NCBI GenBank assembly: GCA_030648835.1
Contig: JAUSGT010000002.1
Coordinates: 373,458-437,457, forward strand
Reading direction: 5' to 3'
Length of the DNA stretch: 64,000 nucleotides
Source: Candidatus Moraniibacteriota bacterium
GTDB taxonomy: Bacteria; Patescibacteriota; Minisyncoccia; Moranbacterales; UBA1568
This document shows, piece by piece, positions 1-60,967 of this stretch. The translations under genes were made by a program, and so were the position numbers. The notes below the pieces were generated by a model, which worked only from the letters and a program-made list of their open reading frames with translations, had not been told where the DNA came from and searched no databases. The first letter of the stretch is position 1, and each line of letters begins with the position of its first letter.

Positions 1-2
1 CC

Positions 3-2018
3 ATCTACGAGCAAGACTTTAAATATAAGAGGCGCTTTTCTCAGAAAGTTGTGATTCCAAAAATATCTAAGGAATACTCATTATTTTGGAGTAGTGTAGT
101 AGGTAATTACCCTAAAGAGTTTAGGAATATTATTTTAGAGGAATATAAGTCAGCATTAGATATAGAGATTCCAACGTTGAAACCAAAAATTCTCAGTAGT
201 CTTTATAAGAATAACAAACTAACCCCTAGAGCAATCTCACGTTTTGAGCTAGATAATTATTCTTCAGCTGGGCTTTTTACTGACACTATTTTTTTTATGG
301 ATGCCACTAAGGGGTTGGACATAATAGATTTTTGGAACTTAAGAGCTACAGGAAGAAAAGTTGTCCCATTTCCTATCCAGTATTCGAAAGATAAAGAAAT
401 TCAGAAAATTGTTCGTGATTTTATAAATATGTCTTATGGTTCTTTAAAGCACAACCCTAAAATATTCAATCACGCATCTTTTATAAAGAGCCGTAGCCTG
501 GAGATGAAACAGATGGAGCAAGCTGTTAAAAGTTTAAAAGTTAGAAAGAAATCTTCTCCAAAAGGTGGGCTATATTTTTCATTGCAATGGTGGTACCCAA
601 GAATGTGGCAAGAAAATTATGTTGATTCTGATAACGTAATACCTGTCGAGGTTTATAATAGTACTCAGAGCATAGATGTAATAGATGAAGATGGAACAAT
701 CTCTTTGCCACCAGTCTTACCTAAGTTTCTTGGGGAAAATCAATCTCTTTTCAGAAGAAAAGTAGGATATGTAAATGAGATAAACATTACCCCTTATAGT
801 TTTGGTTCAAAAATGATTTCTCAAGTATTTCCAATGGGTAAGGAGAACACTTTAAGAGTTATTGATCCTTTGGGGATGCCTGAACAATGGAGAGTAGGGA
901 AAAAGTCTTTAATAAGAGAAGTCTCTTATCAGCATTCCCAGAGGTGGGCTGTTCCTGATTCTCAAGATATATTTTTTTCTTGGCTTAAGGATCTTGGTTT
1001 TAGCGACCTCAAACTTTCTCCCCCTGGTATTTTAGCTAAACAGATTTTTTTTCAGTTAGATGGTTGGCTTAGGATTTTTGCTATTAATGGCATTCTAGAA
1101 CTTTTTGATTCAATGAGTAGGGGGTCTCATAGTGAAGTTGGTATGGCTGTAGGGGCTGTGAAGTCAAAGATCGAACTAATGGGTCGTGATACACAGTTCT
1201 TGGATTTTTTAAATACAAAGAAGATATTTAAAATTGGTGCTAATATTCAGTGCCCGAAGTGTTTCCGTCATTCTTGGTACAGTCTTAGTGATCTAAAAGA
1301 AGAAACAATTTGTTTGAAGTGTCTTAATTCGTTTCCTACAATTTCAAGTATTAATAATAAATGCTGGTATTATAAAACAGCCGGACCTTTCAGTATAGGA
1401 AATCACGCAGAGGGAGCGTATTCTGTCTTGCTATGCTATGATTTTTTCGTAAATGTTATGCATCTGAAAACTAGCGTTGCGTTTAGTTTTAATTTTGAGA
1501 AAAACGGGGAAAAACTTGAAGCTGATTTGGGCTTGTTATGGCTTGATAGTCTTTTTGACAATGTTTCAAATAATACGTTATTCGCAGAGTGTAAGTCTTA
1601 TAACAATTTTGAACAAGGAGATATAGATAGGATGGCTCTTTTAGTTCAAAATTTTCCTGGGGCTGTAATAGTCTTTTCCACACTTAAAAACGAGCTTACT
1701 GTCAACGAGAAAAAGATGATTAAGAAACTTGCAAAAAAATGTAGGAAGTATCATAAAAATAATCTTCCTATAAATCCGCTGCTTGTGCTTACCTCTAATG
1801 AATTACTTTCATTACATCACCCACCGTATTGTTGGAGGGGGAATAGCAAACTTACAGAGAGAGAAAAAAGTAGTATACACTCTTTGTATGATATATGTAA
1901 TGCGAGCCAAAAAATTTATCTTGATCTACCTTCTTGGTATTCTGAATGGGATGAAGAGTGGAAAAAGAAATCTGCTGTGAGAAAAAAGAAGCTGAATGCA
2001 GAATATGTTTGTGAGTAA
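3..2018 (+). CDS. Large hypothetical protein (at least 655 aa, probably 5'-partial). Contains a C4 zinc ribbon (CPKC...CLKC). Lies in the AT-rich island.
   Basis: Frame-3 ORF is open from position 3; the ORF track start at 51 is a GTG. No upstream stop within the window. CxxC-x17-CxxC motif. No recognisable catalytic motif. Confidence 0.45.
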   Translation: MYEQDFKYKRRFSQKVVIPKISKEYSLFWSSVVGNYPKEFRNIILEEYKSALDIEIPTLKPKILSSLYKNNKLTPRAISRFELDNYSSAGLFTDTIFFMDATKGLDIIDFWNLRATGRKVVPFPIQYSKDKEIQKIVRDFINMSYGSLKHNPKIFNHASFIKSRSLEMKQMEQAVKSLKVRKKSSPKGGLYFSLQWWYPRMWQENYVDSDNVIPVEVYNSTQSIDVIDEDGTISLPPVLPKFLGENQSLFRRKVGYVNEINITPYSFGSKMISQVFPMGKENTLRVIDPLGMPEQWRVGKKSLIREVSYQHSQRWAVPDSQDIFFSWLKDLGFSDLKLSPPGILAKQIFFQLDGWLRIFAINGILELFDSMSRGSHSEVGMAVGAVKSKIELMGRDTQFLDFLNTKKIFKIGANIQCPKCFRHSWYSLSDLKEETICLKCLNSFPTISSINNKCWYYKTAGPFSIGNHAEGAYSVLLCYDFFVNVMHLKTSVAFSFNFEKNGEKLEADLGLLWLDSLFDNVSNNTLFAECKSYNNFEQGDIDRMALLVQNFPGAVIVFSTLKNELTVNEKKMIKKLAKKCRKYHKNNLPINPLLVLTSNELLSLHHPPYCWRGNSKLTEREKSSIHSLYDICNASQKIYLDLPSWYSEWDEEWKKKSAVRKKKLNAEYVCE

Positions 2019-2065
2019 AATCGGGACTCTGATAAAGTAGAGGTATTATTTTTTTACTACTGTTT

Positions 2066-2305
2066 ATGAGTAATCAAGAAAGAATTTATAAGTTATGTTT
2101 TTATTGTGAGCACCCCATTATAGAGAATGACAGATTATCAATTGGCTCTATAACTCATGCAGGACTGAAATATAATATCTCAAAGAGACACAGGGAGAAA
2201 ATAGCCTCAATTACTAATAGCGCAGCTTACGAATCGGATCTTATGCACTTACATTGTTATGATTCCGTTGCGTCAGAATTAGGGTTTGGTAATGGTATGT
2301 ATTGA
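2066..2305 (+). CDS. Small Cys-containing hypothetical protein (79 aa)
   Basis: ORF with CFYC motif. AT-rich island context. Confidence 0.3.
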   Translation: MSNQERIYKLCFYCEHPIIENDRLSIGSITHAGLKYNISKRHREKIASITNSAAYESDLMHLHCYDSVASELGFGNGMY

Positions 2306-2423
2306 AGAGGTTGAGACCACTATGTATATCAAAGGGAATTGTAGTAAATGTCACGAATACGGTAGTCTTGAACCAGACGATTCTTTTCGGAATGGTTTTT
2401 GTGAGGATTTTGATTTATAAAGT

Positions 2424-3230
2424 ATGAAAAAACAATTTACCATATTATCAATTATAGCTTTACTATTTTTGGGGAGCCTTGTTTTCGCTATCCCAACAGT
2501 ATCTTCTGCTGAATGTTGGATTTATGGATCGGCTGCAACGGAGGATTACTTAACGGGAGAGTGTAAATGCAGAGCGGGCTATATTATGAGTGATAGACAC
2601 TGCACAAGTGGGGCTACGGCGTGTCTTCTTAAAAATGGCGGATTTTCAACGTATAATGAATCGAAAGGTTCTTGTGAATGCCTTTTCGGCTATACGCTAG
2701 ATAACACTAATCGATGTGTTAAAAAACAAAATAATGTTTACTTTACATTAGAGGAATTAGATACGGGCAACAAGAAGGCGATAATTAGAAGTAACAGTGA
2801 TTTTAATTACTACTTAGTGATTTATAATACTGGTTGTTATGATCGTTCGTTTGAAAGGTATTTAGGAAAACAGATAGTTATAAATTTAGGAACGGATTAC
2901 TATTTGGATACTTTGGACAAAATAGTGTTACAAGATGACAATGAAACATGTGACATAATAAGTAGAGAAAAAGTTGATTCGAGTACAACTTTAAAAGAAG
3001 AAGGTGTGATAATCAAAAGAAGTTATCCATCAACAGTAGTTCCTGAAATTAAAAGAAAACAGGCTGCCATACCTGATACCAACAACAATCCAACAAAAAA
3101 TTCTTCAGTAGAAACTAATACAAATGAAAGTGGATTTAACCCATTTTTTGTTTTAGTTTTTATAATTCTTAGCGGAGGATTTGTCTGGATAATTTGGAAA
3201 TCAATGAAGAATAACATTGAAAGATTATGA
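2424..3230 (+). CDS. Secreted or surface-anchored Cys-rich protein with EGF-like CxC...C repeats (signal peptide plus C-terminal TM anchor)
   Basis: N-terminal signal peptide MKKQFTILSIIALLFLGSLVFAIPTVSSA. Repeated ECKCRAGY...C and SCECLFGY...C modules. C-terminal hydrophobic helix FFVLVFIILSGGFVWIIW. Stop overlaps the next start (ATGA). Confidence 0.6.
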   Translation: MKKQFTILSIIALLFLGSLVFAIPTVSSAECWIYGSAATEDYLTGECKCRAGYIMSDRHCTSGATACLLKNGGFSTYNESKGSCECLFGYTLDNTNRCVKKQNNVYFTLEELDTGNKKAIIRSNSDFNYYLVIYNTGCYDRSFERYLGKQIVINLGTDYYLDTLDKIVLQDDNETCDIISREKVDSSTTLKEEGVIIKRSYPSTVVPEIKRKQAAIPDTNNNPTKNSSVETNTNESGFNPFFVLVFIILSGGFVWIIWKSMKNNIERL

Positions 3231-4444
3231 AAAATAAAATATTCAGTTTAATCAAAGTTACCTCGCTGGTATTTTTAGTAATATTTATTGCACTAGTTAT
3301 TAATTATGCATTCCAATATTTCTGGATTTCTCCACGCTATTGGGGTGGCACAGTTACGCGATCAAACGAGAAAGTGGCAAATACTACGAAAAACTTTATT
3401 AACCTCTATGGATCTGAAAAATTTGCCGCGCTCAATCCTGCTCAAATCAAAAAAGATTATTCTGCGCTCGGCTATAATCTTTTTCTTGAGATAAGACGAA
3501 GTAATCAGGTTGTCGTACGTACTACCTATGCGATTTCTACTATCTTAGATGACCCAAAGACCCATTATACGATTGATTGTGCAATTCCCGGTGTGGGTGA
3601 AAGCTGCTCTATTTTAATTCTAGAGGATGTTAATTCTAAAGCACGTGATTTTAACGCAAATCATACCAATTGGTTGAAAAACTGGTTTATCGCCCCAAAA
3701 GATAATTTCGAAGATAAATATAATAACATTACATGGCCGTTTTTTGTAGCTTTGAGTAGCTCTTCATTGATTGCGACTATTATTCTTGGTTGGTATTTTT
3801 ATGCTAACAAGAAAAAAAGAATATTTCGGGAAAAAGAAGAAGAAAGTCAGAAACTTGAAGAACATATAATAGAGCTTCATCAGATTTTAAGTAATACAAA
3901 AGAGGAAGCTGAAACGGCGAGAGTTGAACTAGACAGGCTTAATTCAGACACAACAACAAACACACAAGAAAATGAGTCTGAAAAGCAGAGACTGCATGAA
4001 AGGGTTAATGAATTAGAAGCCGAGAAGAAAGAGGTAGATGAGGAGGTATTAGTATTTATTGACATTCGGGCAATAGAGAGAGCTATGCGCAATATAATTC
4101 ACAAAAAACTGTCTCAGAGATACCCCCATGGGAATTATTGGGATGTCGCAATTCCAAATGACATAAGAGAACGACTAAGGGATCGTTTAACTTGGCTTAA
4201 GGAGCAAGACAACAGAAAAAGGATTGATGAAACCTATTTCGGCGAGTGCAGAGATATTATAAGGTACAATTATGGTTTATTTGTGGGTATATTTGGGAGA
4301 AAAGATGACGCAATGTCGTATTTCAGAATACTGATTAATACCAGGAATGCACTAGCTCATGACAGAGAAAACAGTGATTTGAGATATATACCTAACGCCA
4401 TAGAATGGGCAAAAAGAAAACTGGAAATAAACAACGATGCATAG
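3227..4444 (+). CDS. Membrane-anchored (2 TM) coiled-coil protein with a C-terminal DUF4145/HEPN-like domain (Rx4H motif RNALAH). Putative RNase-type effector.
   Basis: TM helices near residues 10-35 and about 165-190. Charged coiled-coil (EEESQKLEEH...ELEAEKKEVDEE). C-terminus IDIRAIERAMRNIIHKKL ... FRILINTRNALAHD matches DUF4145/HEPN signatures. Translationally coupled to the flanking genes. Confidence 0.55.
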   Translation: MKNKIFSLIKVTSLVFLVIFIALVINYAFQYFWISPRYWGGTVTRSNEKVANTTKNFINLYGSEKFAALNPAQIKKDYSALGYNLFLEIRRSNQVVVRTTYAISTILDDPKTHYTIDCAIPGVGESCSILILEDVNSKARDFNANHTNWLKNWFIAPKDNFEDKYNNITWPFFVALSSSSLIATIILGWYFYANKKKRIFREKEEESQKLEEHIIELHQILSNTKEEAETARVELDRLNSDTTTNTQENESEKQRLHERVNELEAEKKEVDEEVLVFIDIRAIERAMRNIIHKKLSQRYPHGNYWDVAIPNDIRERLRDRLTWLKEQDNRKRIDETYFGECRDIIRYNYGLFVGIFGRKDDAMSYFRILINTRNALAHDRENSDLRYIPNAIEWAKRKLEINNDA

Positions 4445-5909
4445 GGAGATACTAACTTTTATGGAAAGTACACTTTTTATTACGCCGAGTAGACCACTTG
4501 ATGAAATAAGCCGGCTTATTGGCAATGGGCTAAAAAAGAACGGCCTTATCGAAAAAGGAAATCCGCGAAGAGCGAATACTCGTTTTAAATTATCTGAGAA
4601 TGATTACTTTGTAGGGTTTTCTTGGTGTTACGAAACTATTCCTGATAGTGTAGTAATCCTTCTGGAAATCTCAAAATACTATGAAGAAGAGGAGAGAAAG
4701 AAGGATACCCCATCTAAGTTAACCAAGCCTGAAATAATCAACTATGCCAAAAGCTTTAAGAAATATATTGAATCTGAACAACTGCCAATATCAGAGGTGA
4801 AAATAAAACAATTTAAATTATCGAAGTCTTTGTCTGTAGAATATGAACTGGGTAATAAAATTGTTTCGCCATCAAAGAGGGGGGCATTGCATAACCCATT
4901 TGAACTTAGAGCGTTGCCGGAATCAATTCGTGTATATTGGCCTGCGGGGTCTCTTAACGAAAGTGATCGGGCGTGTAGAATGCTTGCCGATAGTTTGATA
5001 AGATTCGGCGTTAGGGGGGCAAGAATGTTCCCAGAACTTTATAATAATCAAACGCTACCTTTACCGGATAATGATTCTTTTGAGTGTATAATTATTATTC
5101 CTAATATTGAGGATGAATTAGCAAAGCCACTTATTGTAGAATTAAAGAAACGACCCAGGGGCATACATATATTTGATTTTGATGATAATGGCAATCAATA
5201 CAAATTTGACAATTTGGCCGCTGGTATTTTATATAATAGTGGCAGTGAACTTTGGAGAGTTCATGGTTTGGATCAAAATAACTCCATATATGTTGGTATT
5301 GACTTAGGTCACGACCCCAAACTAAGAAAGTCTAAAATATGTATGACTTTTATTGACAAGAATGGTCGGGAGCTTTCTGAGCATAGGTATATTGCAGAGG
5401 ACTTACCTTTGAATGAAAAACAACAACTGATAGGTATTCTTACTGATAAGTTAGAAAAAATTCAAAAAGAAAATGGATTTGAAAACGTTATTATTCACAA
5501 AGATGGCCGAATTCTGGAAAATCACGATACGCTTTATTACACACTAAAACAAAAATTTGGAAGCGTCTCGCTTATTGAAGTAGTAAAGTCAAATTCAGCC
5601 TTTATTCTAGATCCAGAATCTAAAATGGGTGATATTTTTGATTTTGGAAATTTTATACTTTTACAAACGTTACCATTTAACCACCTTGGGAAATGTACTG
5701 AGCCTATAAAAATTAAGATACTGAAATCCGATTTAGATAGGATGTTTCTTATTGACAATGTATTTAAACTTTCGAAGGCTTTTTGCGGAGATTCATTATA
5801 CGCAGACAAGAAATTACCAATTACAACACATATTGCTGATCGATTCTCATCATTCCAAACAGGTAAGACGTTACAGTCGTTTAATATTGCGAAAAAGTGG
5901 ATAAAATAA
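4437..5909 (+). CDS. Short prokaryotic Argonaute (MID-PIWI, about 480-490 aa). PIWI motifs GIDLGHD, IIHKDGR, IEVVKS and SLYADKK are present.
   Basis: Motif-level match to Argonaute PIWI. GIDLGHD matches the GxDVxH beta-strand that carries the first catalytic Asp. VIIHKDGR matches IHRDGR. SLIEVVKSNSAFIL matches the VEVVKSGN segment. FILLQTLPF...GKCTEP matches FYLxSQ..GTxRP. SLYADKKL matches YYADxxA, which carries the last catalytic residue. A preceding Rossmann-like MID segment (CIIIIPN ... NQYKFDNLAAGILYNSGSELW) is present. An alternative start at 4461 has an AGGGAG RBS. Confidence 0.65.
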   Translation: MHREILTFMESTLFITPSRPLDEISRLIGNGLKKNGLIEKGNPRRANTRFKLSENDYFVGFSWCYETIPDSVVILLEISKYYEEEERKKDTPSKLTKPEIINYAKSFKKYIESEQLPISEVKIKQFKLSKSLSVEYELGNKIVSPSKRGALHNPFELRALPESIRVYWPAGSLNESDRACRMLADSLIRFGVRGARMFPELYNNQTLPLPDNDSFECIIIIPNIEDELAKPLIVELKKRPRGIHIFDFDDNGNQYKFDNLAAGILYNSGSELWRVHGLDQNNSIYVGIDLGHDPKLRKSKICMTFIDKNGRELSEHRYIAEDLPLNEKQQLIGILTDKLEKIQKENGFENVIIHKDGRILENHDTLYYTLKQKFGSVSLIEVVKSNSAFILDPESKMGDIFDFGNFILLQTLPFNHLGKCTEPIKIKILKSDLDRMFLIDNVFKLSKAFCGDSLYADKKLPITTHIADRFSSFQTGKTLQSFNIAKKWIK

Positions 5910-5956
5910 AAATATGAAAAATAAACTTCTCTATTTTGCGGTAAACTTTTAAATAA

Positions 5957-6463
5957 GTGAGACAGAAAAACATGGAAACAAAAGATCCTATTCAAAAAGA
6001 TTCAGGAAAAAAGTGGCCGAAAACACTGCTTAAATATTTGTTTGCCATAATCATCATTTTCGTATTGCTGTTTAGTTTGGTCGGTTCTTACGAAGATCTA
6101 CTTGATGTGTCCTTTTTGGTCTTCGTTCTTGCGGTGATTACCGTTATAGCACTTATAGCCGGGGGTTTGCTGACAGGGTATGAACATGTTAAGCCGATAG
6201 CAGATAAATTTGAGGACGAGAATGTATGGCAGTATATCAGAATGGCGATCATCAGATTATTGATTGGTGGGTTCATAATTTATTGGATGATTGGTGGCGA
6301 GGGATTTCTTAGTCTTGACAGCCTCGAAAATATCGTTCATAATCTTGGGAAATTTTCTCTCTGGATTTTTGCAATATATTTTGTTCTGGCCGGGCTAAAG
6401 AGTCTCTATTGGGTTATTCGAGAAGTAATAAAAAATTTAACGAGTGATGGAGACGAGGATTGA
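5957..6463 (+). CDS. Small 4-TM membrane protein, possibly part of the pAgo module
   Basis: Four hydrophobic helices. Acidic C-terminus. Begins 48 bp downstream of the pAgo gene. Confidence 0.5.
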   Translation: MRQKNMETKDPIQKDSGKKWPKTLLKYLFAIIIIFVLLFSLVGSYEDLLDVSFLVFVLAVITVIALIAGGLLTGYEHVKPIADKFEDENVWQYIRMAIIRLLIGGFIIYWMIGGEGFLSLDSLENIVHNLGKFSLWIFAIYFVLAGLKSLYWVIREVIKNLTSDGDED

Positions 6464-6478
6464 TTTCAAGAGATAAAG

Positions 6479-7420
6479 ATGAACCAGGATAATTTCGTTA
6501 AAATTGAAGGGTGTTTCAGACAAGCTAGAATCACTAGCGAGCTTGCGGATTCTTCGGTTGCAAAATATCGTGATTCAATTAAGAAATTCTTTTCTGTCAT
6601 TGGCAACAAAGATTTTGAATTACTGGTAATCGTTGACTTTGAGAACTTGATTCTAAAAATGCGGGATAATGGTGCGGGTAATTCCAGGATTGCCAACGTA
6701 ATTTCTGCTGTTAAGTGGCTTACTAAAAAACTTCAAGATGGGGGAAAAATACCAAAAACGCTTGATTTAGAGAAGGTAAAAAAACCGAAAATTGAAAGGA
6801 AGGAAGTTGAATATTTGAACGATCAAGAAATAAAAAGGCTCATTGACTGTATTTTAGACGATCTTTCAAAAGGGGAATTCATAAGGAAGGTGAGGATAAT
6901 GGCGCTTGTAGTGTTTTTACTAGAAAGCGGTGCAAGAATTGGCGAAGCCCTTTCAATCAAAATTGAAAAAATTGACTGGGATAACAATGAAATCCCCATT
7001 GTTGGAAAAGGGAAAAAACCGAGAACGTTGTTTTTCAGGGATCGTTCTAAATATTGGTTTCAAAAGTATTTATCCATAAGAAAAAGTGATAGCGAGTTTT
7101 TGTTTGTTACTCTCAGTGGCTTGGCTAAATGGTCACAAACAGACGTAGGGAGATCTTTTAGACGGTATAGGAACTTGTCCGGAATAAAGAAAAAGCTTGT
7201 TTTGCATACACTGAGGCATACTACTGCTACCCAACTATCATTTAAGGGCGCTCAATTTAACGAAATACAAGCCCTTTTGGGTCACGCTCGACTAGAAACC
7301 ACAGTAAAGTATTATATCGGCGCGGCAGGAAAACAGAGGGTCAAGAAAATGATGCAGGATAAATACTATGATTTCATTCCTGAATCAGTGTTGAAAGTTA
7401 ATAAATCAGTGAAGGCATAG
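6479..7420 (+). CDS. Tyrosine-type site-specific recombinase/integrase (XerC/XerD-like)
   Basis: SGARIGEAL (Arg box I). HTLRHTTATQL (HxxR). LLGHARLETTVKYY (catalytic Tyr region). Confidence 0.8.
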   Translation: MNQDNFVKIEGCFRQARITSELADSSVAKYRDSIKKFFSVIGNKDFELLVIVDFENLILKMRDNGAGNSRIANVISAVKWLTKKLQDGGKIPKTLDLEKVKKPKIERKEVEYLNDQEIKRLIDCILDDLSKGEFIRKVRIMALVVFLLESGARIGEALSIKIEKIDWDNNEIPIVGKGKKPRTLFFRDRSKYWFQKYLSIRKSDSEFLFVTLSGLAKWSQTDVGRSFRRYRNLSGIKKKLVLHTLRHTTATQLSFKGAQFNEIQALLGHARLETTVKYYIGAAGKQRVKKMMQDKYYDFIPESVLKVNKSVKA

Positions 7421-7682
7421 TAAATGTCGTCAAAACGTTATTCTTTGGTTTAGCCTCCAAGCTGCCAAATCTGGTCGGGTAGAATACGACAGCGTCCACC
7501 ATAATCTCCAAAGGCTCATCAAAGAGGCTCTTAGGCCTACTAATTGGCGTCTGATGAGCGATGGAGTCACTTATCGCCTTGGGTTTCCTCCAAGGGCGCT
7601 TAAGAGGTGTAGAAGGTGAAGAAGCTCTCCGAAAGCTCGTAGAATTAGAGCAAAAAAAGTTAACTCCTAAAAAGAGGAATTT

Positions 7683-8462
7683 ATGAACGAAAATGCCAAG
7701 GGAAAGATCGAATTTCTTATTCAAGATAACCTACGCGCCATTAAATCGAAACATCCAAAGATCGCGTTGAAGGCAGATCCCAATATTTTAGAACAAGACA
7801 AAAAGAAATCTGCGGAAGAGATCGCGCTTACTCTGCCTTCTCTTCAGAAGCATCTTGATGAATTGTTACCATTTATCCAAAATCTTCGAAAGCATATTCA
7901 GGATATTACTGAACAGACGCATATTTGTGCTGCTTATCTGTTACTTGCTCGTGCTACGCAAGATTGGAAATCGTTACTTTCCTTGGCAGAGAAGGGAGAT
8001 ATCGGCTGTTGGTCATTCATACGTCTAATTAAGGAATCTGTAGCACTCGCAGATCTTTTCGCTTTGGAATCTAGAGGAGATAGTCGTAAGTATATTGAAA
8101 AATGGTTTTCCGGACAGATTATTGGTCATGCAGCCTACAGAGAGGTTCAGACGGAATTCATGCGTCAAGATCCAAGCAACGCAGGTATTGATATAGAAGC
8201 CATGGCCACGGAGCTTTATCAAATGGAGTCTTTGGTAATTCACGCTTCATATAGCACGATGCTAGAGAGCGTAAGTCCATTCACGGAAGATTTTGACTAT
8301 ACAGGCCGTACCCAATATTCTCGTACTAGTAAGGCTTTGGGATATGCTCATGGCACTATGGTAAATATGAATATTGTTCTGAAATCAGTCTATCTTTTCC
8401 TAATCAAAGATAGCAATGCATACGAGGATCTTGATAAGATACTGATTAAATACTCGAGATAG
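7683..8462 (+). CDS. Hypothetical protein (259 aa), first cassette-like unit after the recombinase
   Basis: ORF with an AAGAGGAAT RBS. No recognisable domain. Confidence 0.45.
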   Translation: MNENAKGKIEFLIQDNLRAIKSKHPKIALKADPNILEQDKKKSAEEIALTLPSLQKHLDELLPFIQNLRKHIQDITEQTHICAAYLLLARATQDWKSLLSLAEKGDIGCWSFIRLIKESVALADLFALESRGDSRKYIEKWFSGQIIGHAAYREVQTEFMRQDPSNAGIDIEAMATELYQMESLVIHASYSTMLESVSPFTEDFDYTGRTQYSRTSKALGYAHGTMVNMNIVLKSVYLFLIKDSNAYEDLDKILIKYSR

Positions 8463-8475
8463 ATAGAGACACCAA

Positions 8476-8639
8476 GCTGTCTCATATGGTAAAATAAGAC
8501 AGGGTCTGTCCTGTGTCTCATTTGTCTCGTTTTACCCCCAAAACCGCGACCCGAGAGCCTCAATCCACTCGTCGGCCAAGACCTCCAAGAAATCCCTCAA
8601 CGGCTTGATTTCTCAAAGTTCTAGACCGATGACGCCCGC
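8476..8639. repeat. About 164 bp GC-rich intergenic repeat, copy 1. Contains the hairpin GGTAAAATaAGACA...TGTCTCGTTTTACC.
   Basis: Near-identical to 9891..10054. Its 3' half matches 13986..14080. Confidence 0.85.
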
Positions 8640-8861
8640 AGTGAACGTTAGTGAACGGAGGAGAGGAGGAAGCCAACTGCTTGGCTTCCGTGATGGATGA
8701 GAAAGGCGGAGCGATGTTTCGCGAGTACGCGAAACCGTGAGCCAGGGTCGTGGAAATTTATGAGCGTCGGCGAATAAATTATCCCTGACCGAATCCCTGC
8801 CTCTCTGTAGGCAGGTTTCCCTCTTCGCCAAAATTGAAAATCGGAATCGGAAGCTGAAAAT

Positions 8862-9842
8862 ATGAGTAAGGAAAAGAAATTCGGAATTATCGCTGGAGCA
8901 GTTCTCATTGCTATTGCGGGTCTGTTTATAATGAACCGTGTATTTTTCAACGCACCTCAATCTCAGGAAGAAAAGACAGTTTTTATTATGAATCGTAGTC
9001 AAACCGAAACACAAACATTGGATAAATTAAAAACTCAAGGATTGATTAGAAATAAATGGGCATTTAAGTTGGTTCTATTTCTCAAGCATAACAAAATTGA
9101 GCCTGGCGGTTATACTGTGTCAAAAAGTATGAGCGCTTGGCAAATCGCCAACAAACTTATTTCTGCTCCTGATATGAAATGGGTGGTAATCCCCGAGGGA
9201 CTGCGAAAGGAGCAGATTGGGGAAAAACTGGCGGAGACATTCGATTGGAGTGACGAAGAACTTGGTAAATGGAATACGGAATACACTAAAATGAGGATAG
9301 ATTATATCGAGGGGACGTATTTCCCTGATACCTATCTTATTCCGGTAAATGAAGGCGGATTCAAAATGGCTGAACGAATGACGAGGCGTTTTGATGAAAA
9401 ATTTGCTCCGTATATCAGCCAGTTTGCCCAACAAAATATCCTGTGGACTACTGGGCTCAAATTAGCTTCAATTATCCAGAGAGAAGCCGGGGGGAAAGAC
9501 GATATGCCCCTTATCGCTGGAGTCATGTGGAACAGGCTCGATCAAAATATGAATTTAGAAATAGACGCGACTGTCCAGTATGCACGAGGGAAAGCCGAGG
9601 CTGGCTGGTGGGCACCCGTTACATCTGGAGGTATACAAAGCATCGATTCTCCATACAATACTTACAAAAACAAGGGACTACCTCCCTTTCCTATTTCTAA
9701 TCCAGGGATTGATGCGATTGAAGCGGTCTTACATCCAGTTGAAACTGATTGTCTATACTACCTTCACGACAGCGATCGGCAAATCCACTGCGCTAAGACG
9801 TTTGAAGAACACAAGGAAAATATAGAGAAGTACTTGCGGTAA
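8862..9842 (+). CDS. mltG: Endolytic murein transglycosylase MltG (YceG-like)
   Basis: N-terminal TM. YceG-like motifs (GGYTV, EGLRKEQI, SIIQREAG, GVMWNRL, LEIDATVQY). Confidence 0.75.
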   Translation: MSKEKKFGIIAGAVLIAIAGLFIMNRVFFNAPQSQEEKTVFIMNRSQTETQTLDKLKTQGLIRNKWAFKLVLFLKHNKIEPGGYTVSKSMSAWQIANKLISAPDMKWVVIPEGLRKEQIGEKLAETFDWSDEELGKWNTEYTKMRIDYIEGTYFPDTYLIPVNEGGFKMAERMTRRFDEKFAPYISQFAQQNILWTTGLKLASIIQREAGGKDDMPLIAGVMWNRLDQNMNLEIDATVQYARGKAEAGWWAPVTSGGIQSIDSPYNTYKNKGLPPFPISNPGIDAIEAVLHPVETDCLYYLHDSDRQIHCAKTFEEHKENIEKYLR

Positions 9843-9890
9843 TCACATGAAAATGTACCTCTACGGAAACATCCAAAAGGGAGACATCCC

Positions 9891-10054
9891 GCTGTCCCAT
9901 ATGGTAAAATGAGACAAGGTCTGTCCTGTGTCTCATTTGTCTCGTTTTACCCCCAAAACCGCGACCCGAGAGCCTCAATCCACTCGTCGGCCAAGACCTC
10001 CAAGAAATCCCTCAACGGCTTGATTTCTCAAAGTTCTAGACCGATGACGCCCGC
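9891..10054. repeat. About 164 bp GC-rich intergenic repeat, copy 2
   Basis: Near-identical to 8476..8639 (a few substitutions). Confidence 0.85.
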
Positions 10055-10301
10055 TAAGATTATTTTTCACCCTTCTGGGTGTAAAATAGGCTTTGTTGAT
10101 TGGAAGGATGAGAAGGGCGTGAGTCGGATGCGAACAAGCGAGCATCCTGTGTGTAGCGCCCAGGCTCCGAGTCGGAGCGAGGAGGAATCCCTCCTTCTCC
10201 GCCCTCGCTCGCCGAAGCGAACCTTCGGCGTGACGAAGTCCGCTGTAGATACGTGAAAGTTTTCGAGGTTCCGGTTGATGATCTTTTGAAGAAATAAAAC
10301 T

Positions 10302-11288
10302 ATGAAAAAATTAATTGTACATAAAGTAAATATTTCTCATCAGCGTCTTGTTGAACTATCTAAACTAGCCGATCAGGCAAAGCCTTTTTACGATTGGGTT
10401 GAAAAGGTAGCAAAAAAAGTTACTGGATCGCACAGAAGTTTGAACGAGATAATTTTTCAGTCATCAAAAAAAGAAATTCATACCATAATTAAAAGTTGTT
10501 ATTCCAATGGAGCGGAAACAAAACCTTTTTTGTTTGATGGCGTTGGTAGAGTTTATCCTCACTTTAAGGCTTGTTTTTACTTTTTTGCTTGGATAGTTCG
10601 AGACGCTCCACAACAAAGACTTTCCCCCTTAATTAGTCGTATGCAAAAAGCCGACAAGGTTTCTAAAATTACGGCGGAAACAGATGCGCTTGTAAAATTA
10701 ATTTTTGAATACAAATCTGTAGTAAAAAGTTTTGAATGGCAAGCTGTGCGAGAAGTGATAATTGATAGGTTGGAGGGGTCTAGGCGAAGTATTCGCGGAC
10801 ATGCTTTAGAGGCGAGCGCGCGAACAAGCTTGGTTACCGCTATTCAAAATTATTATTCAATTCACGGAGATTACGGGAAATTTAAGAAAGTTGAAATTGC
10901 TGATAAGCAGATAAAAATAGGTAGGCACACTGTAGACGTTTCCGCTTTGCTCTATCCTAAAAATGAATCAGTTCCTATTCGACTGCTTATCCCAATAAAG
11001 ACAAGGGAGACCGAAGGCGGTGGTCATTCTCATATCTTCACTAGAGATGTAATTTCCGCGATTACTGATATTAAAGCCGAAAAGAAAAAAGATCATATTA
11101 TAGTTGTGATTGTTGCCGAAAATTGGTCTCCAAGAGAAATCCAGACAATAGATGATGCGATTGATTTGATTTTTCATTTCAATATGAGTCCGAATGCATT
11201 TGAGGGCTTTGACGAGAGCGCTCAAGTTACATTGAATCAGTATATTGAAAAAATATTTAGCGAATATGAAAAGCAAGCACGAAAATAA
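10302..11288 (+). CDS. Hypothetical protein, putative restriction endonuclease partner of the downstream methyltransferase
   Basis: Overlaps the MTase gene by 44 nt in the same operon. No nuclease motif could be confirmed by eye. Confidence 0.35.
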   Translation: MKKLIVHKVNISHQRLVELSKLADQAKPFYDWVEKVAKKVTGSHRSLNEIIFQSSKKEIHTIIKSCYSNGAETKPFLFDGVGRVYPHFKACFYFFAWIVRDAPQQRLSPLISRMQKADKVSKITAETDALVKLIFEYKSVVKSFEWQAVREVIIDRLEGSRRSIRGHALEASARTSLVTAIQNYYSIHGDYGKFKKVEIADKQIKIGRHTVDVSALLYPKNESVPIRLLIPIKTRETEGGGHSHIFTRDVISAITDIKAEKKKDHIIVVIVAENWSPREIQTIDDAIDLIFHFNMSPNAFEGFDESAQVTLNQYIEKIFSEYEKQARK

Positions 11289-12150
11289 AATACTACTTGG
11301 TGATGTACGGGAAGTGATAAAAATCTTTCCCGATCTGCACTTTCAAGCTATTATCACTAGCCCGCCATATTTTGGTCATAGAAAATATTCAGAAAAAAGT
11401 TCTAGTGGCGAGGTGGGTCGGGAATCAAACCCAGAACAGTATATTGAGAATATTAGGCAAATTTTCAACGGGCTTAGGCCAAAATTAAAAGACAATGGAT
11501 TATTGTGGTTAAACCTTGGCGATACCTACAGAGAGAAAACCCTACTTGGTATTCCGTGGCGGACTGCTCTGGCTTTGCAATCTGACGGCTGGATACTCCG
11601 AAGTGATATTATTTGGCGAAAAACAAATGCTATGCCGTCGTCCATCAAAGATCGACCTACTACTGATCATGAGTATGTATTTATGTTTTCCAAAACTCCA
11701 GAATATCTTTATTACGCGGACGCAATTAGAGAGCCACATGTTACGTTTTCTGATAAATCCAAAATGAAGGGTGGAAGAAATCATTTTGGGAAACGAGACG
11801 GTACACCGGAAAACGGAAAGAATGGCGGCAACTCAAATCTTCACAATGGAAGGTGGGATCAAGCTTTTCACCCAAATGGAAGGAATAAAAGAACTGTTTG
11901 GGATATTTCTCTAGGCAAGTTTAGAGATACGCATTTTGCGGTTTATCCTGAAAAGCTTGTAGAAACTTGTATTCTTGCATCTACAAAAGAGGGCGATTTG
12001 GTTTTTGACCCATTTATGGGTTCTGGTACAACAGCATTGGTGGCGTGTAAGCTAGGGAGAAATTTTACTGGTGTTGAGTTAGTCGAAAAATATAAAGACA
12101 TGGCGGAAAAAAGAGTCTCGCCTTATCTTAAACAAGCAAAATTAGTATGA
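11245..12150 (+). CDS. DNA methyltransferase, beta-class N4-cytosine/N6-adenine (motif IV SPPY before motif I FMGSGTT)
   Basis: IITSPPYFG (D/S-PPY). DPFMGSGTTALVA (FxGxG SAM-binding motif) near the C-terminus. Confidence 0.85.
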   Translation: MKKYLANMKSKHENKILLGDVREVIKIFPDLHFQAIITSPPYFGHRKYSEKSSSGEVGRESNPEQYIENIRQIFNGLRPKLKDNGLLWLNLGDTYREKTLLGIPWRTALALQSDGWILRSDIIWRKTNAMPSSIKDRPTTDHEYVFMFSKTPEYLYYADAIREPHVTFSDKSKMKGGRNHFGKRDGTPENGKNGGNSNLHNGRWDQAFHPNGRNKRTVWDISLGKFRDTHFAVYPEKLVETCILASTKEGDLVFDPFMGSGTTALVACKLGRNFTGVELVEKYKDMAEKRVSPYLKQAKLV

Positions 12151-60716: not shown

Positions 60717-60895
60717 ACGTTTGGAGATTATGATTTAACAATTTATCGAGTATTTTGAAAAAATTTGATATTTATCTATTTTACAATACCACAAATAGAA
60801 AAGCCCCTAAAGAGAAGCTTCAATTTTCTTGTTTGATTTCTACCTCTAAATTATATCAAATTTTGATACCAAAAGGCATCAAAATTTGCTAATGC

Positions 60896-60967
60896 TGGGG
60901 AGGAAGGGATCGAACCTTCGCATGGAGGCTTCAAAGGCCCCTGCCTTACCGCTTGGCTACTCCCCAT
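60896..60967 (-). tRNA. tRNA-Gln (anticodon UUG) with U1:A72 pair and G73 discriminator. CCA not encoded.
   Basis: Manual fold of the reverse complement: 7 bp acceptor stem, U8, anticodon stem GGGGC/GCCTC, loop CTTTGAA, T-arm GAAGG-TTCGATC-CCTTC. Confidence 0.75.

What the first reader, a model, noticed from the sequence alone, without database searches (positions are those of the whole stretch)
3227..4444. Membrane-tethered coiled-coil DUF4145/HEPN-like protein as the putative effector
The architecture is a TM helix, a roughly 140 aa extracytoplasmic segment, a second TM helix, a long acidic/basic coiled coil, and a C-terminal domain. That domain carries IDIRAIERAMRNII... and FRILINTRNALAHD, which contain an Rx4H motif of the HEPN RNase type and match DUF4145. 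HEPN toxins tethered to the membrane and coupled to a PIWI protein have not, to my knowledge, been described.
Basis: partly seen in the sequence, partly recalled or inferred. Interest (0 to 1): 0.7.

Follow-up and report, generated by a model that had tools for sequence, protein, structure and literature searches.

The report
Receptor-shaped membrane HEPN RNase beside mini-Argonaute
This gene from an uncultured Moranbacteria genome encodes a membrane protein built like a signalling receptor (outside sensor-type domain, stalk, inside HEPN RNA-cutting domain), and it sits directly in front of a shortened Argonaute that keeps its cutting residues, a rare pairing I did not find described in the literature I searched.

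Summary
ORF 3227-4444(+) encodes 405 aa: TM1, a 137-aa ectodomain, TM2, a heptad stalk of about 80 aa, and a C-terminal domain.

- **Downstream PIWI protein.** It is 482 aa, starts 16 nt after the stop, lacks PAZ and keeps an invariant DEDD slicer tetrad.
- **Conservation.** The pair recurs in 4 loci, including a second paralogous pair in the same genome. Both ends of the membrane protein are swapped among relatives, and three relatives show no Argonaute downstream.
- **Rarity.** About eight relatives turned up in roughly 15 billion proteins.

I rate "Argonaute-linked toxic RNase effector" as most likely (about 0.42). A guide-RNA-making role, as in AmAgo/Agap-HEPN, is a serious rival (about 0.25).

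Soluble HEPN partners and membrane partners of Argonautes are each known; this combination was not found in the literature searched. I class it as a new variant of a known kind.

The parts
3227..4444 (+). Whole gene: 405-aa two-pass membrane protein with a cytoplasmic HEPN domain (NCBI Q7S04_02975)
   Evidence: ORF. Exact match to the NCBI MAG protein. Its ATG overlaps the stop of the upstream gene (ATGA at 3227-3230).
3251..3319 (+). TM helix 1 (aa 9-31), N-terminus inside the cell
   Evidence: Hydropathy up to 2.7 over 19-residue windows, with MKNK before it.
3320..3730 (+). Extracytoplasmic domain (aa 32-168) with a PDC/Cache-like sensor fold. Invariant R37-Y38-W39, T42, Y83-N84, C118, C127 and W149.
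3731..3802 (+). TM helix 2 (aa 169-192)
   Evidence: Hydropathy about 1.7. It is followed by NKKKRIFREK, consistent with the positive-inside rule.
3803..4051 (+). Cytoplasmic heptad-repeat stalk (aa 193-275): two heptad segments with a polar break at about aa 240-252
   Evidence: Heptad a/d scan, and no Pro or Gly in 193-285. Weak hits to coiled-coil families only.
4052..4441 (+). HEPN domain of the Abi2/Swt1 clade (aa 276-405)
4343..4360 (+). Predicted catalytic motif R373-N-A-L-A-H378 (RNxxxH)
   Evidence: R and H are invariant in all 10 aligned domains, together with R288 and W394.
4443..4449 (+). Shine-Dalgarno-like AGGGAGA overlapping the HEPN gene's TAG stop, 12 nt before the ATG at 4461
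   Evidence: Read directly from the sequence. NCBI and all homologues start at MEST....
4461..5909 (+). Partner gene: 482-aa PAZ-less Argonaute (MID-PIWI) with DEDD tetrad D289/E327/D356/D468. Numbering follows the 490-aa ORF that starts at 4437.
   Evidence: PADLOC pAgo/PIWI models at E 2e-20. Profile against PDB: CpAgo 6.5e-14, MpAgo 1.2e-12, with catalytic residues aligned. Tetrad invariant in the family wherever the sequences cover it.

Best explanation
The gene encodes a receptor-shaped membrane RNase that works as the toxic RNA-cutting output of a two-gene Argonaute defence module.

**Anatomy (shown).** N-in TM1; an extracellular PDC/Cache-like domain with a conserved cysteine pair; TM2; a heptad stalk of about 80 residues; and a cytoplasmic Abi2/Swt1-type HEPN domain with an intact RNxxxH motif. 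The gene is followed 16 nt later by a PAZ-less Argonaute, and the pair is conserved as a unit.

**Mechanism (inferred).**
1. The stalk pairs two chains, so that two HEPN domains sit side by side under the membrane. HEPN RNases generally need a dimer to form the active site (as reviewed in PMC11162769).
2. When the Argonaute, loaded with a guide, binds invader nucleic acid, it engages the stalk/HEPN region.
3. This, possibly together with a signal from the ectodomain, switches the HEPN dimer on.
4. The RNase then degrades RNA at the membrane and arrests the infected cell or the invader's expression.

The swapping of the C-terminal domain among relatives is read as effector exchange.
For: - **Topology.** It places HEPN in the cytoplasm.
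- **Gene linkage.** The Argonaute lies immediately downstream, with gaps of 5-33 nt, in the window, L001, L002 and L003. L003 corresponds to a second paralogous pair, Q7S04_01465/01470, named for the same MAG contig. No + strand terminator-like site lies between 2424 and 5909.
- **Modularity typical of defence effectors.**
  - The same N-terminal module carries HEPN (window, P0009) or a different domain of about 110 aa (P0007, P0008, P0010, P0011).
  - The closest Argonaute (69% identity, L001) has a partner with a different multi-TM anchor and a third C-terminal domain.
  - The closest HEPN (P0012) sits on that other anchor.
  - Partner architecture therefore does not track the Argonaute tree.
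- **Defence context.**
  - The domain matches the PADLOC candidate model PDC-M34B at E 1e-10.
  - P0016's locus carries genes with SduA_C, CYTH and HD domains.
  - L003 carries a DNA methylase and DUF6339.
  - In the window, an integrase and a methyltransferase lie nearby.
- **Precedents.** Membrane effectors are activated by pAgo complexes in SiAgo-Aga1-Aga2 (PMC11788926) and BPAM (10.1101/2023.03.09.531850). Catalytically active pAgos also use accessory effectors (PLD; PMC11442185).
Against: - The Argonaute keeps an invariant DEDD tetrad. Characterised effector-coupled short and long-B pAgos are catalytically dead (PMC11788926, PMC11162769 introductions).
- No APAZ or N-L1-L2 adaptor was detected in either protein by profile searches. 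No physical link between sensor and effector is therefore indicated.
- A folded, conserved extracellular sensor-type domain is unnecessary for a purely Argonaute-triggered toxin.
- Three relatives of the membrane protein show no Argonaute gene downstream (P0010/L005 and P0016/L007; P0012, judged from gene sizes only because no DNA was held). The protein may therefore work on its own.
- The alternative C-terminal domains could not be identified as toxins.
- RNase activity, toxicity and any Argonaute contact are untested.
Confidence: 0.42

Rival explanations
1. Guide-RNA maker. The HEPN domain cuts cellular or invader transcripts into 5'-OH fragments. The adjacent slicer-competent mini-Argonaute loads these as guides and then cleaves the invader itself, as in the AmAgo/Agap-HEPN pair. 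The membrane anchor only positions the pair, for example where foreign DNA enters the cell.
For: - Published precedent: Agap-HEPN makes 5'-OH guides for a catalytically active pAgo and is required for defence (PMC11162769).
- The Argonaute here keeps DEDD.
- Its best solved relatives are active long-A enzymes. One is MpAgo, which uses 5'-OH RNA guides (PMC6299218).
- The last Lys of the MID 5'-phosphate motif YKQTNK is Asn here: LYNSGS against CpAgo ILGKIGG. By the criterion in PMC6299218 section 8 this is a non-canonical MID pocket.
- HEPN products carry a 5'-OH (PMC11162769).
Against: - Closely related Argonautes have partners whose C-terminal domain is not HEPN (L001, L002). A dedicated guide-processing enzyme would be expected to co-evolve with the MID pocket rather than be swapped.
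- The alternative domains are not shown to be RNases. The hhalign comparison to RelE/YoeB/YafQ/ParE gave probability 0.2%.
- The model offers no reason for a conserved extracellular domain.
- The rest of the MID pocket could not be aligned to any solved Argonaute.
Confidence: 0.25
2. Autonomous transmembrane receptor-RNase (Ire1-like logic). The extracellular PDC/Cache-like domain senses a ligand or an envelope event, such as phage adsorption, host-cell contact or wall damage. The signal passes through TM2 and the stalk and switches the HEPN dimer on. The Argonaute is an optional downstream add-on in some loci rather than the trigger.
For: - The ectodomain has 12 invariant positions, including a Cys pair.
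- Family members occur with no Argonaute gene downstream (L005, L007; P0012 from gene sizes only).
- Output-domain swapping on a constant sensor is typical of signalling receptors.
Against: - In every locus where a downstream same-strand neighbour could be read, it is the Argonaute, with a gap of 5-33 nt.
- The membrane module itself is swapped for a multi-TM one without a sensor domain in L001/P0012. The sensor is therefore not essential to the Argonaute partnership.
Confidence: 0.18
3. Membrane disruptor or scaffold. As in SiAga2 and bAgaM, the toxic or functional part is the membrane segment (pore formation or depolarisation on oligomerisation), or the protein simply anchors the Argonaute to the membrane. 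The HEPN domain would serve as an RNA-binding or Argonaute-docking module rather than as a nuclease.
For: - What all Argonaute-linked partners share is membrane helices plus a stalk, not the C-terminal domain.
- Membrane effectors of pAgos are established (PMC11788926; 10.1101/2023.03.09.531850).
- Some HEPN domains are non-catalytic binders. The 2013 survey (PMC3710099) infers that the eukaryotic Swt1 HEPN domain might be inactive because it has lost the conserved motif.
Against: - R373, H378 and R288 are invariant, and the motif is the canonical RNxxxH. This argues for catalysis.
- Only two TM helices separated by a folded domain is a poor pore-former.
- The two anchor types are unrelated in sequence.
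Confidence: 0.1

Closest known systems
AmAgo / Agap-HEPN (Alteromonas macleodii; PMC11162769)
   Same: A HEPN RNase with conserved R...H is co-encoded with an Argonaute that has an intact catalytic tetrad. The system is implicated in defence.
   Different: Agap is described there without a membrane anchor and was purified and assayed in solution; here the RNase has two TM helices, an ectodomain and a stalk. [quoted passage not shown] Sequence relatedness of the two HEPN domains was not tested because no Agap sequence was held. Here the HEPN domain is replaced by other domains in sister loci.
SiAgo-Aga1-Aga2 (Sulfolobus islandicus; PMC11788926) and long-B BPAM systems (10.1101/2023.03.09.531850)
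   Same: A truncated or short Argonaute is genetically coupled to a transmembrane partner and is thought to trigger abortive infection.
   Different: In those systems the Argonaute is catalytically dead (SiAgo has A213/L257/T291/N435 in place of DEDX), SiAgo needs an APAZ-like Aga1 adaptor, and toxicity is membrane depolarisation. Here the tetrad is DEDD, no adaptor gene or domain was found, and the partner carries an RNase domain and an extracellular sensor-type domain.
Abi2/AbiF and bacterial Swt1-like HEPN proteins (PF18731, PF07751; PMC3710099; PDB 8vz6, 4pqz)
   Same: The closest fold and sequence family of the C-terminal domain. It shares the same Rx4H and N-terminal helix Arg. The family is typically found in defence contexts, for example fused to GmrSD-like DUF262/DUF1524 nucleases as in P0013, P0017, P0019 and P0020.
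   Different: The known members I saw are soluble and fused to nucleases or other cytoplasmic domains. None of the 2013 survey passages retrieved for Argonaute, PIWI or transmembrane links a HEPN domain to an Argonaute operon. AbiF is controlled by a non-coding RNA, and no such RNA was looked for or seen here.
Ire1 / RNase L type sensor-coupled HEPN (KEN) RNases of eukaryotes (PMC3710099)
   Same: The design logic is shared: a sensing domain on the far side of a membrane, a membrane span, and a HEPN-superfamily RNase. Activation of Ire1 by dimerisation or oligomerisation is stated from general knowledge.
   Different: This is analogy only. There is no kinase domain, the sensor fold is different, the HEPN clade is different, and activation by the ectodomain is not shown here.
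SPARTA / SPARSA / SPARDA / SPARHA short-pAgo systems
   Same: Two-gene operon with the effector gene directly upstream of a MID-PIWI Argonaute. Effector domains are exchangeable between related systems.
   Different: Those effectors are fused to an APAZ domain, are soluble, and pair with catalytically inactive short pAgos that have canonical HK/RK MID motifs (PMC6299218). None of these features is met here.

Membership tests
HEPN superfamily | All-helical up-and-down bundle fold shared by solved HEPN domains | tested here: met
HEPN superfamily | Conserved Rx4-6H motif, with a polar residue after R | tested here: met
   R373-N-A-L-A-H378. R and H are invariant in 10 aligned domains.
HEPN superfamily | Metal-independent endoribonuclease activity | not testable with these tools
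   Needs an RNA cleavage assay with R373A/H378A controls.
Pfam HEPN_Swt1 (PF18731), Abi2/Swt1 clade | Profile score at or above the curated cut-off of 27.5 bits | tested here: inconclusive
DUF4145 (PF13643) | Match to the family profile | tested here: not met
   DUF4145 is not listed at E<=1 for the whole protein, at E<=10 for the isolated domain, or among the families hit by any of the 10 homologues.
PDC/Cache extracytoplasmic sensor domains | Fold: long N-terminal helix from TM1, central antiparallel sheet, C-terminal helix into TM2 | tested here: met
PDC/Cache extracytoplasmic sensor domains | Match to a Cache/PAS-type sequence profile | tested here: not met
   No Pfam family at E<=10 for residues 35-170.
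Short-pAgo effector systems (SPARTA/SPARSA/SPARDA/SPARHA) | Effector fused to an APAZ domain | tested here: not met
   Neither gene hits an APAZ-containing model in PADLOC or Pfam. Structure-level APAZ similarity of the Argonaute's first 245 residues was not tested.
Short-pAgo effector systems (SPARTA/SPARSA/SPARDA/SPARHA) | Catalytically inactive PIWI domain (DEDX lost) | tested here: not met
   D289, E327, D356 and D468 align to the catalytic residues of CpAgo and MpAgo. D356 aligns to the residue that is Ala in the CpAgo mutant entry 9jh8. The tetrad is invariant wherever the family sequences cover it.
SiAgo-like / BPAM membrane-effector systems | Transmembrane partner encoded next to the Argonaute | tested here: met
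SiAgo-like / BPAM membrane-effector systems | Inactive Argonaute plus (for SiAgo) an APAZ-like Aga1 adaptor | tested here: not met
   The DEDD tetrad is present. No third conserved gene was found: the window's flanking genes have no counterpart in L001-L007.
AmAgo/Agap-HEPN type (guide-making RNase plus active pAgo) | HEPN RNase co-encoded with an Argonaute that has a catalytic tetrad | tested here: met
AmAgo/Agap-HEPN type (guide-making RNase plus active pAgo) | Homology of the RNase to Agap and of the Argonaute to the AmAgo clade; guides depend on the RNase | not tested
Guide dependence needs an experiment.
PADLOC candidate system PDC-M34 | Match to the gene B model plus the presence of the system's other gene(s) | tested here: inconclusive
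   PDC-M34B matches residues 231-381 at E 1e-10. No neighbouring gene matched a PDC-M34 model, and the system's composition could not be looked up.

The most novel reading that the evidence does not exclude
This reading is an outside-in, self-programming Argonaute immunity. The membrane protein would be a true receptor. An extracellular event sensed by the PDC/Cache-like domain, such as phage docking or host contact, would switch on the HEPN dimer under the membrane. The RNase would chop local transcripts into 5'-OH guides, and the slicer-competent mini-Argonaute would load them on the spot to cut the incoming nucleic acid. That would amount to a bacterial Ire1-like sensor wired to an RNAi-like effector.
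Probability: 0.1. Interest if true: 0.9.

Novelty: new variant of a known kind. Interest (0 to 1): 0.66.

Why it matters
- **A fourth style of Argonaute partner.** Known partners are soluble APAZ-fused enzymes, membrane disruptors and a soluble guide-making RNase. A membrane receptor-like RNase would add a new type and would tie Argonaute function to the cell envelope.
- **It challenges a working rule.** The field assumes that truncated Argonautes are catalytically dead sensors that rely on effectors. This truncated Argonaute keeps its slicer residues.
- **It gives a clean test case.** The same stalk carries HEPN or other domains, and two unrelated membrane anchors carry the same HEPN. This can be used to ask whether an Argonaute-linked RNase is a toxin or a guide maker.
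- **Host biology.** The family is confined, as far as seen, to a handful of metagenomic contigs; the only ones with a taxonomic label come from one Moranbacteria (candidate phyla radiation) MAG. The defence biology of such uncultured bacteria is little explored.

Tried and rejected
- **DUF4145 assignment.** Rejected: no profile hit.
- **Sequence search of solved structures.** The whole protein and the HEPN profile gave only chance-level hits. Fold comparison was needed.
- **Word-indexed protein search.** With the full protein it found only the protein itself. With the N-terminal profile it found only P0009 and P0010. The exhaustive representative search was what revealed the family.
- **RelE/ParE idea for the alternative C-terminal domain of about 110 aa** (the W-K-G ... 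E-R-L-F-V-Q ... D-Y-x-H-K pattern looks RelE-like by eye). Not supported:
  - Nothing was found in Pfam, PDB sequences, PADLOC, PHROGs or NCBIfam.
  - The third C-terminal domain (L001) and that of P0016 are equally unidentified.
- **More loci.** Scans of genome, metagenome and viral contig collections with the Argonaute and ectodomain profiles gave no confirmed relatives; one further scan failed to build a pattern. A plasmid tblastn gave only distant PIWI proteins at 21-26% identity.
- **MID pocket of the Argonaute.** The N-terminal 277 residues match no solved chain. Only the last motif position could be read.
- **A conserved third gene.** The window's flanking genes (655 aa, 268 aa, 168 aa) have no counterpart in the related loci.
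- **'PprPIWI'.** The name of the best PADLOC model could not be traced in the literature.
- **AFDB fold search.** Unavailable.
Full report

Yes. An ATG-to-TAG ORF of 405 codons occupies exactly 3227..4444 on the + strand. It is identical to a hypothetical protein, Q7S04_02975, of a Candidatus Moranbacteria metagenome-assembled genome, on a contig of 635,596 bp.

Hydropathy gives two membrane helices, residues about 9-31 and 169-192. Lys/Arg clusters lie at the extreme N-terminus and just after the second helix. This places the 137-residue loop outside the cell and everything after residue 192 inside.

Residues 193-285 contain no Pro or Gly. They show a steady heptad pattern in 197-240 and again in 253-285, with a polar break between the two segments.

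An RxnH string by itself means little, since the protein has three, one of them in the ectodomain. The one at R373-H378 is different, as shown below.

**2. What the C-terminal domain is**

- **Profile searches.** Scanned alone, residues 273-405 score against Pfam HEPN_Swt1 (E 7e-5, 23.5 bits, below the 27.5-bit cut-off) and HEPN_Apea (E 3e-3). DUF4145 is not listed even at E<=10. The PADLOC candidate-defence model PDC-M34B matches residues 231-381 at E 1e-10.
- **Homologues.** An exhaustive HMMER search of 1.84 billion representative proteins found nine proteins that match this domain. Several of them are GmrSD-like DUF262/DUF1524 nucleases with a C-terminal copy of it.
- **Alignment.** Across ten domains, R288, R373, H378 and W394 are invariant. 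Seven of the ten hit HEPN_Swt1, with a best E of 1.8e-15.
  - then Csm6, AbiA, classical HEPN toxins and Cas13.

The domain is therefore a HEPN domain of the Abi2/Swt1 clade defined in the 2013 survey (PMC3710099). It carries a canonical RNxxxH motif. It is not DUF4145.

**3.

Six proteins in the representative search match only residues 1-265, that is TM1, ectodomain, TM2 and stalk. Their alignment shows twelve invariant ectodomain positions, including R37-Y38-W39, Y83-N84 and the cysteine pair C118/C127.

A model of residues 33-170 is of moderate confidence (pLDDT 72.6). It shows a long helix, short helices, a four-stranded sheet and a C-terminal helix.

If it holds, the protein has the layout of a transmembrane signalling receptor whose output domain is an RNase.

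**4. The partner gene**

The next ORF matches pAgo/PIWI models (PADLOC E 2e-20). NCBI and all homologues start it at the ATG at 4461, giving 482 aa. That start lies 12 nt after a Shine-Dalgarno-like AGGGAGA which overlaps the TAG stop of the HEPN gene.

A family profile finds CpAgo (E 6.5e-14) and MpAgo (E 1.2e-12) as the closest solved relatives. These printed alignments show three things:
- D289, E327, D356 and D468 align with the catalytic residues.
- D356 aligns with the residue that is Ala in the CpAgo mutant entry 9jh8.
- The last Lys of the MID YKQTNK motif is Asn here. By the criterion of PMC6299218 this is a non-canonical 5'-end pocket.

D289, E327 and D356 are invariant in all five family sequences. 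D468 is invariant in the four that reach that region.

This is therefore a PAZ-less but apparently slicer-competent Argonaute. It is not a typical dead short pAgo.

**5. Is the pairing conserved?**

Loci where the Argonaute follows directly:

| Locus | Argonaute identity to the window's | Partner protein upstream |
|---|---|---|
| L001 | 69% | About 400 aa: TM helix, short loop, several TM helices, stalk, unrelated C-terminal domain |
| L002 (P0007) | 51% | Same N-terminal module as the window, different C-terminal domain of about 110 aa |
| L003 (P0009) | 52% | Same N-terminal module, HEPN |

- **Paralogous pair.** P0009 and the Argonaute paralogue P0005 carry locus tags Q7S04_01465 and 01470 of the same MAG contig. 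One genome therefore carries two diverged copies of the pair. L003 itself was fetched from a Logan assembly of SRR13727527.
- **Undecided.** In two loci the contig ends right after the membrane-protein gene.
- **No Argonaute downstream.** Two relatives, P0010 and P0016, have none. P0012 also has none by gene size, but no DNA was held for it.
- **Cross-combination.** P0012 combines the L001-type multi-TM anchor (36% identity, E 7e-26) with the HEPN domain closest to ours.

Both ends of the protein are thus exchangeable around a stalk. Partner architecture does not follow the Argonaute tree.

The family is very small. I saw about eight relatives among roughly 15 billion proteins. None turned up in the genome, metagenome, viral or plasmid collections scanned.

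**6. How it most likely works**

*Shown:* the topology, the HEPN fold and motif, the sensor-like ectodomain fold, operon-like coupling to a DEDD Argonaute, recurrence of the pair, and the modular swapping.

*Inferred:* everything about activity and direction of signalling.

I favour, at about 0.42, a model in which the stalk holds two HEPN domains as a dimer beneath the membrane and the RNase is the toxic output of an Argonaute defence module. The reasons are:
- Effector-style domain swapping between closely related Argonautes.
- The effector-first gene order typical of short-pAgo operons.
- The defence-type contexts: SduA_C, CYTH and HD genes next to P0016; methylase and DUF6339 in L003; integrase and a methyltransferase in the window.
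- Precedents for membrane and accessory effectors (PMC11788926; 10.1101/2023.03.09.531850; PMC11442185).

The main rival, at about 0.25, is the Agap-HEPN model, in which the RNase makes 5'-OH guide RNAs for an active Argonaute (PMC11162769). It is supported by the DEDD tetrad, the non-canonical MID position and the MpAgo relationship. It is weakened by the replacement of HEPN with unidentified domains in sister loci.

A third reading, at about 0.18, takes the receptor shape at face value. In it the ectodomain is the trigger and the Argonaute is optional, which fits the relatives that lack an Argonaute. A scaffold or membrane-disruptor role is least likely (about 0.1), given the invariant catalytic motif.

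**7. Comparison with what is known, and novelty**

- A soluble HEPN RNase co-encoded with a pAgo is published (PMC11162769).
- Transmembrane pAgo effectors are published (SiAga2, bAgaM).
- Truncated long pAgos without PAZ were catalogued in 2018 (PMC6299218).

Full-text searches found no paper that combines a membrane-anchored or sensor-linked HEPN protein with an Argonaute. The 2018 pAgo survey contains neither 'HEPN' nor 'membrane'.

The system fails defining tests for SPARTA-type systems: no APAZ was detected and the PIWI domain is active. It fails those for SiAgo/BPAM: the PIWI domain is active and there is no adaptor. It matches the AmAgo/Agap type only in outline.

I class it as a new variant of a known kind, namely Argonaute plus accessory-protein operons.

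**8. Verdict**

Interest is 0.66. This is a rare and architecturally unusual Argonaute system with a clear, testable dichotomy between toxin and guide maker. It also raises the possibility of outside-in control.

Noticed in passing
window 4461-5909 (+): The PIWI protein is only 482 aa and lacks PAZ, yet it keeps an invariant DEDD tetrad (D289/E327/D356/D468 in 490-aa numbering). It has Asn in place of the last Lys of the MID YKQTNK motif. Its closest solved relatives are the active long-A enzymes CpAgo and MpAgo.
   Followed up: partly
window 4437-4463: The longest ORF for the Argonaute starts at 4437 and overlaps the HEPN gene. The likely true start is the ATG at 4461, preceded by AGGGAGA (4443-4449), which overlaps the upstream TAG stop. 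All homologues begin MEST...
   Followed up: yes
L003 6001-8549 (same MAG by protein name, locus tags Q7S04_01465/01470): A second, diverged copy of the same pair (sensor-TM-stalk-HEPN plus Argonaute, about 40% and 54% identity) is named for the same Moranbacteria contig. In L003 it lies downstream of genes for a DNA methylase, DUF6339 and DUF4760.
   Followed up: partly
L001 7-1215 and protein P0012: A second, unrelated multi-TM anchor with a conserved juxtamembrane PYESPIDK(K/R)EEKIREYE motif carries either an unidentified alpha/beta-looking domain (L001, next to the closest Argonaute) or the HEPN domain (P0012). In L001 the first helix after the stalk, IEKAIKNILH, still resembles HEPN helix 1 (IERAMRNIIH). 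The rest does not, which suggests a recombination point there; the match is weak (E 0.026).
   Followed up: partly
proteins P0007, P0008, P0010, P0011 (C-terminal ~110 aa): An unidentified C-terminal domain replaces HEPN on the same sensor-stalk scaffold. It has 26 invariant positions, among them K59, G63, E84-R85-L86, Q89, D102-Y103 and H105-K106. It looks RelE/ParE-like by eye, but no search supported this.
   Followed up: partly
window 2424-3230 (+): A 268-aa protein with a signal-peptide-like N-terminus, Cys-rich repeats that give weak EGF-like hits, and a C-terminal TM helix. Its stop overlaps the start of the HEPN gene (ATGA). It has no counterpart in the related loci.
   Followed up: partly
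window 1-8500: G+C is 32-38% from 1 to about 7000 and 40-45% from about 7000 to 11000. The low-G+C stretch ends with a tyrosine recombinase gene (6479-7420, Phage_integrase E 3e-30). This suggests that the Argonaute pair sits on an integrated island. No att repeats or flanking tRNA were looked for, and the only tRNA in the window is at 60894-60966.
   Followed up: no
window 51-2018 (+) and 5957-6463 (+): A 655-aa protein with a CxxC...CxxC zinc-ribbon-like stretch lies upstream, and a 168-aa multi-TM protein lies downstream of the Argonaute. Neither has a significant family match or a counterpart in the related loci.
   Followed up: partly
window 10302-12150 (+): An N4/N6 DNA methyltransferase gene (11245-12150, E 7e-54) overlaps the end of an unassigned 328-aa ORF (10302-11288). 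Together these may form a restriction-modification pair, a second defence-type element near the Argonaute island.
   Followed up: no
L007 3442-5727; L005 1663-4464 (-): Relatives of the membrane protein that lack an Argonaute downstream sit in loci with other nucleic-acid or defence-type genes. L007 carries genes with SduA_C (Shedu nuclease C-terminal domain), CYTH and HD domains about 2-4 kb from P0016. In L005 a 933-aa DinG-like helicase with an RNase_T exonuclease domain lies convergent to P0010.
   Followed up: no
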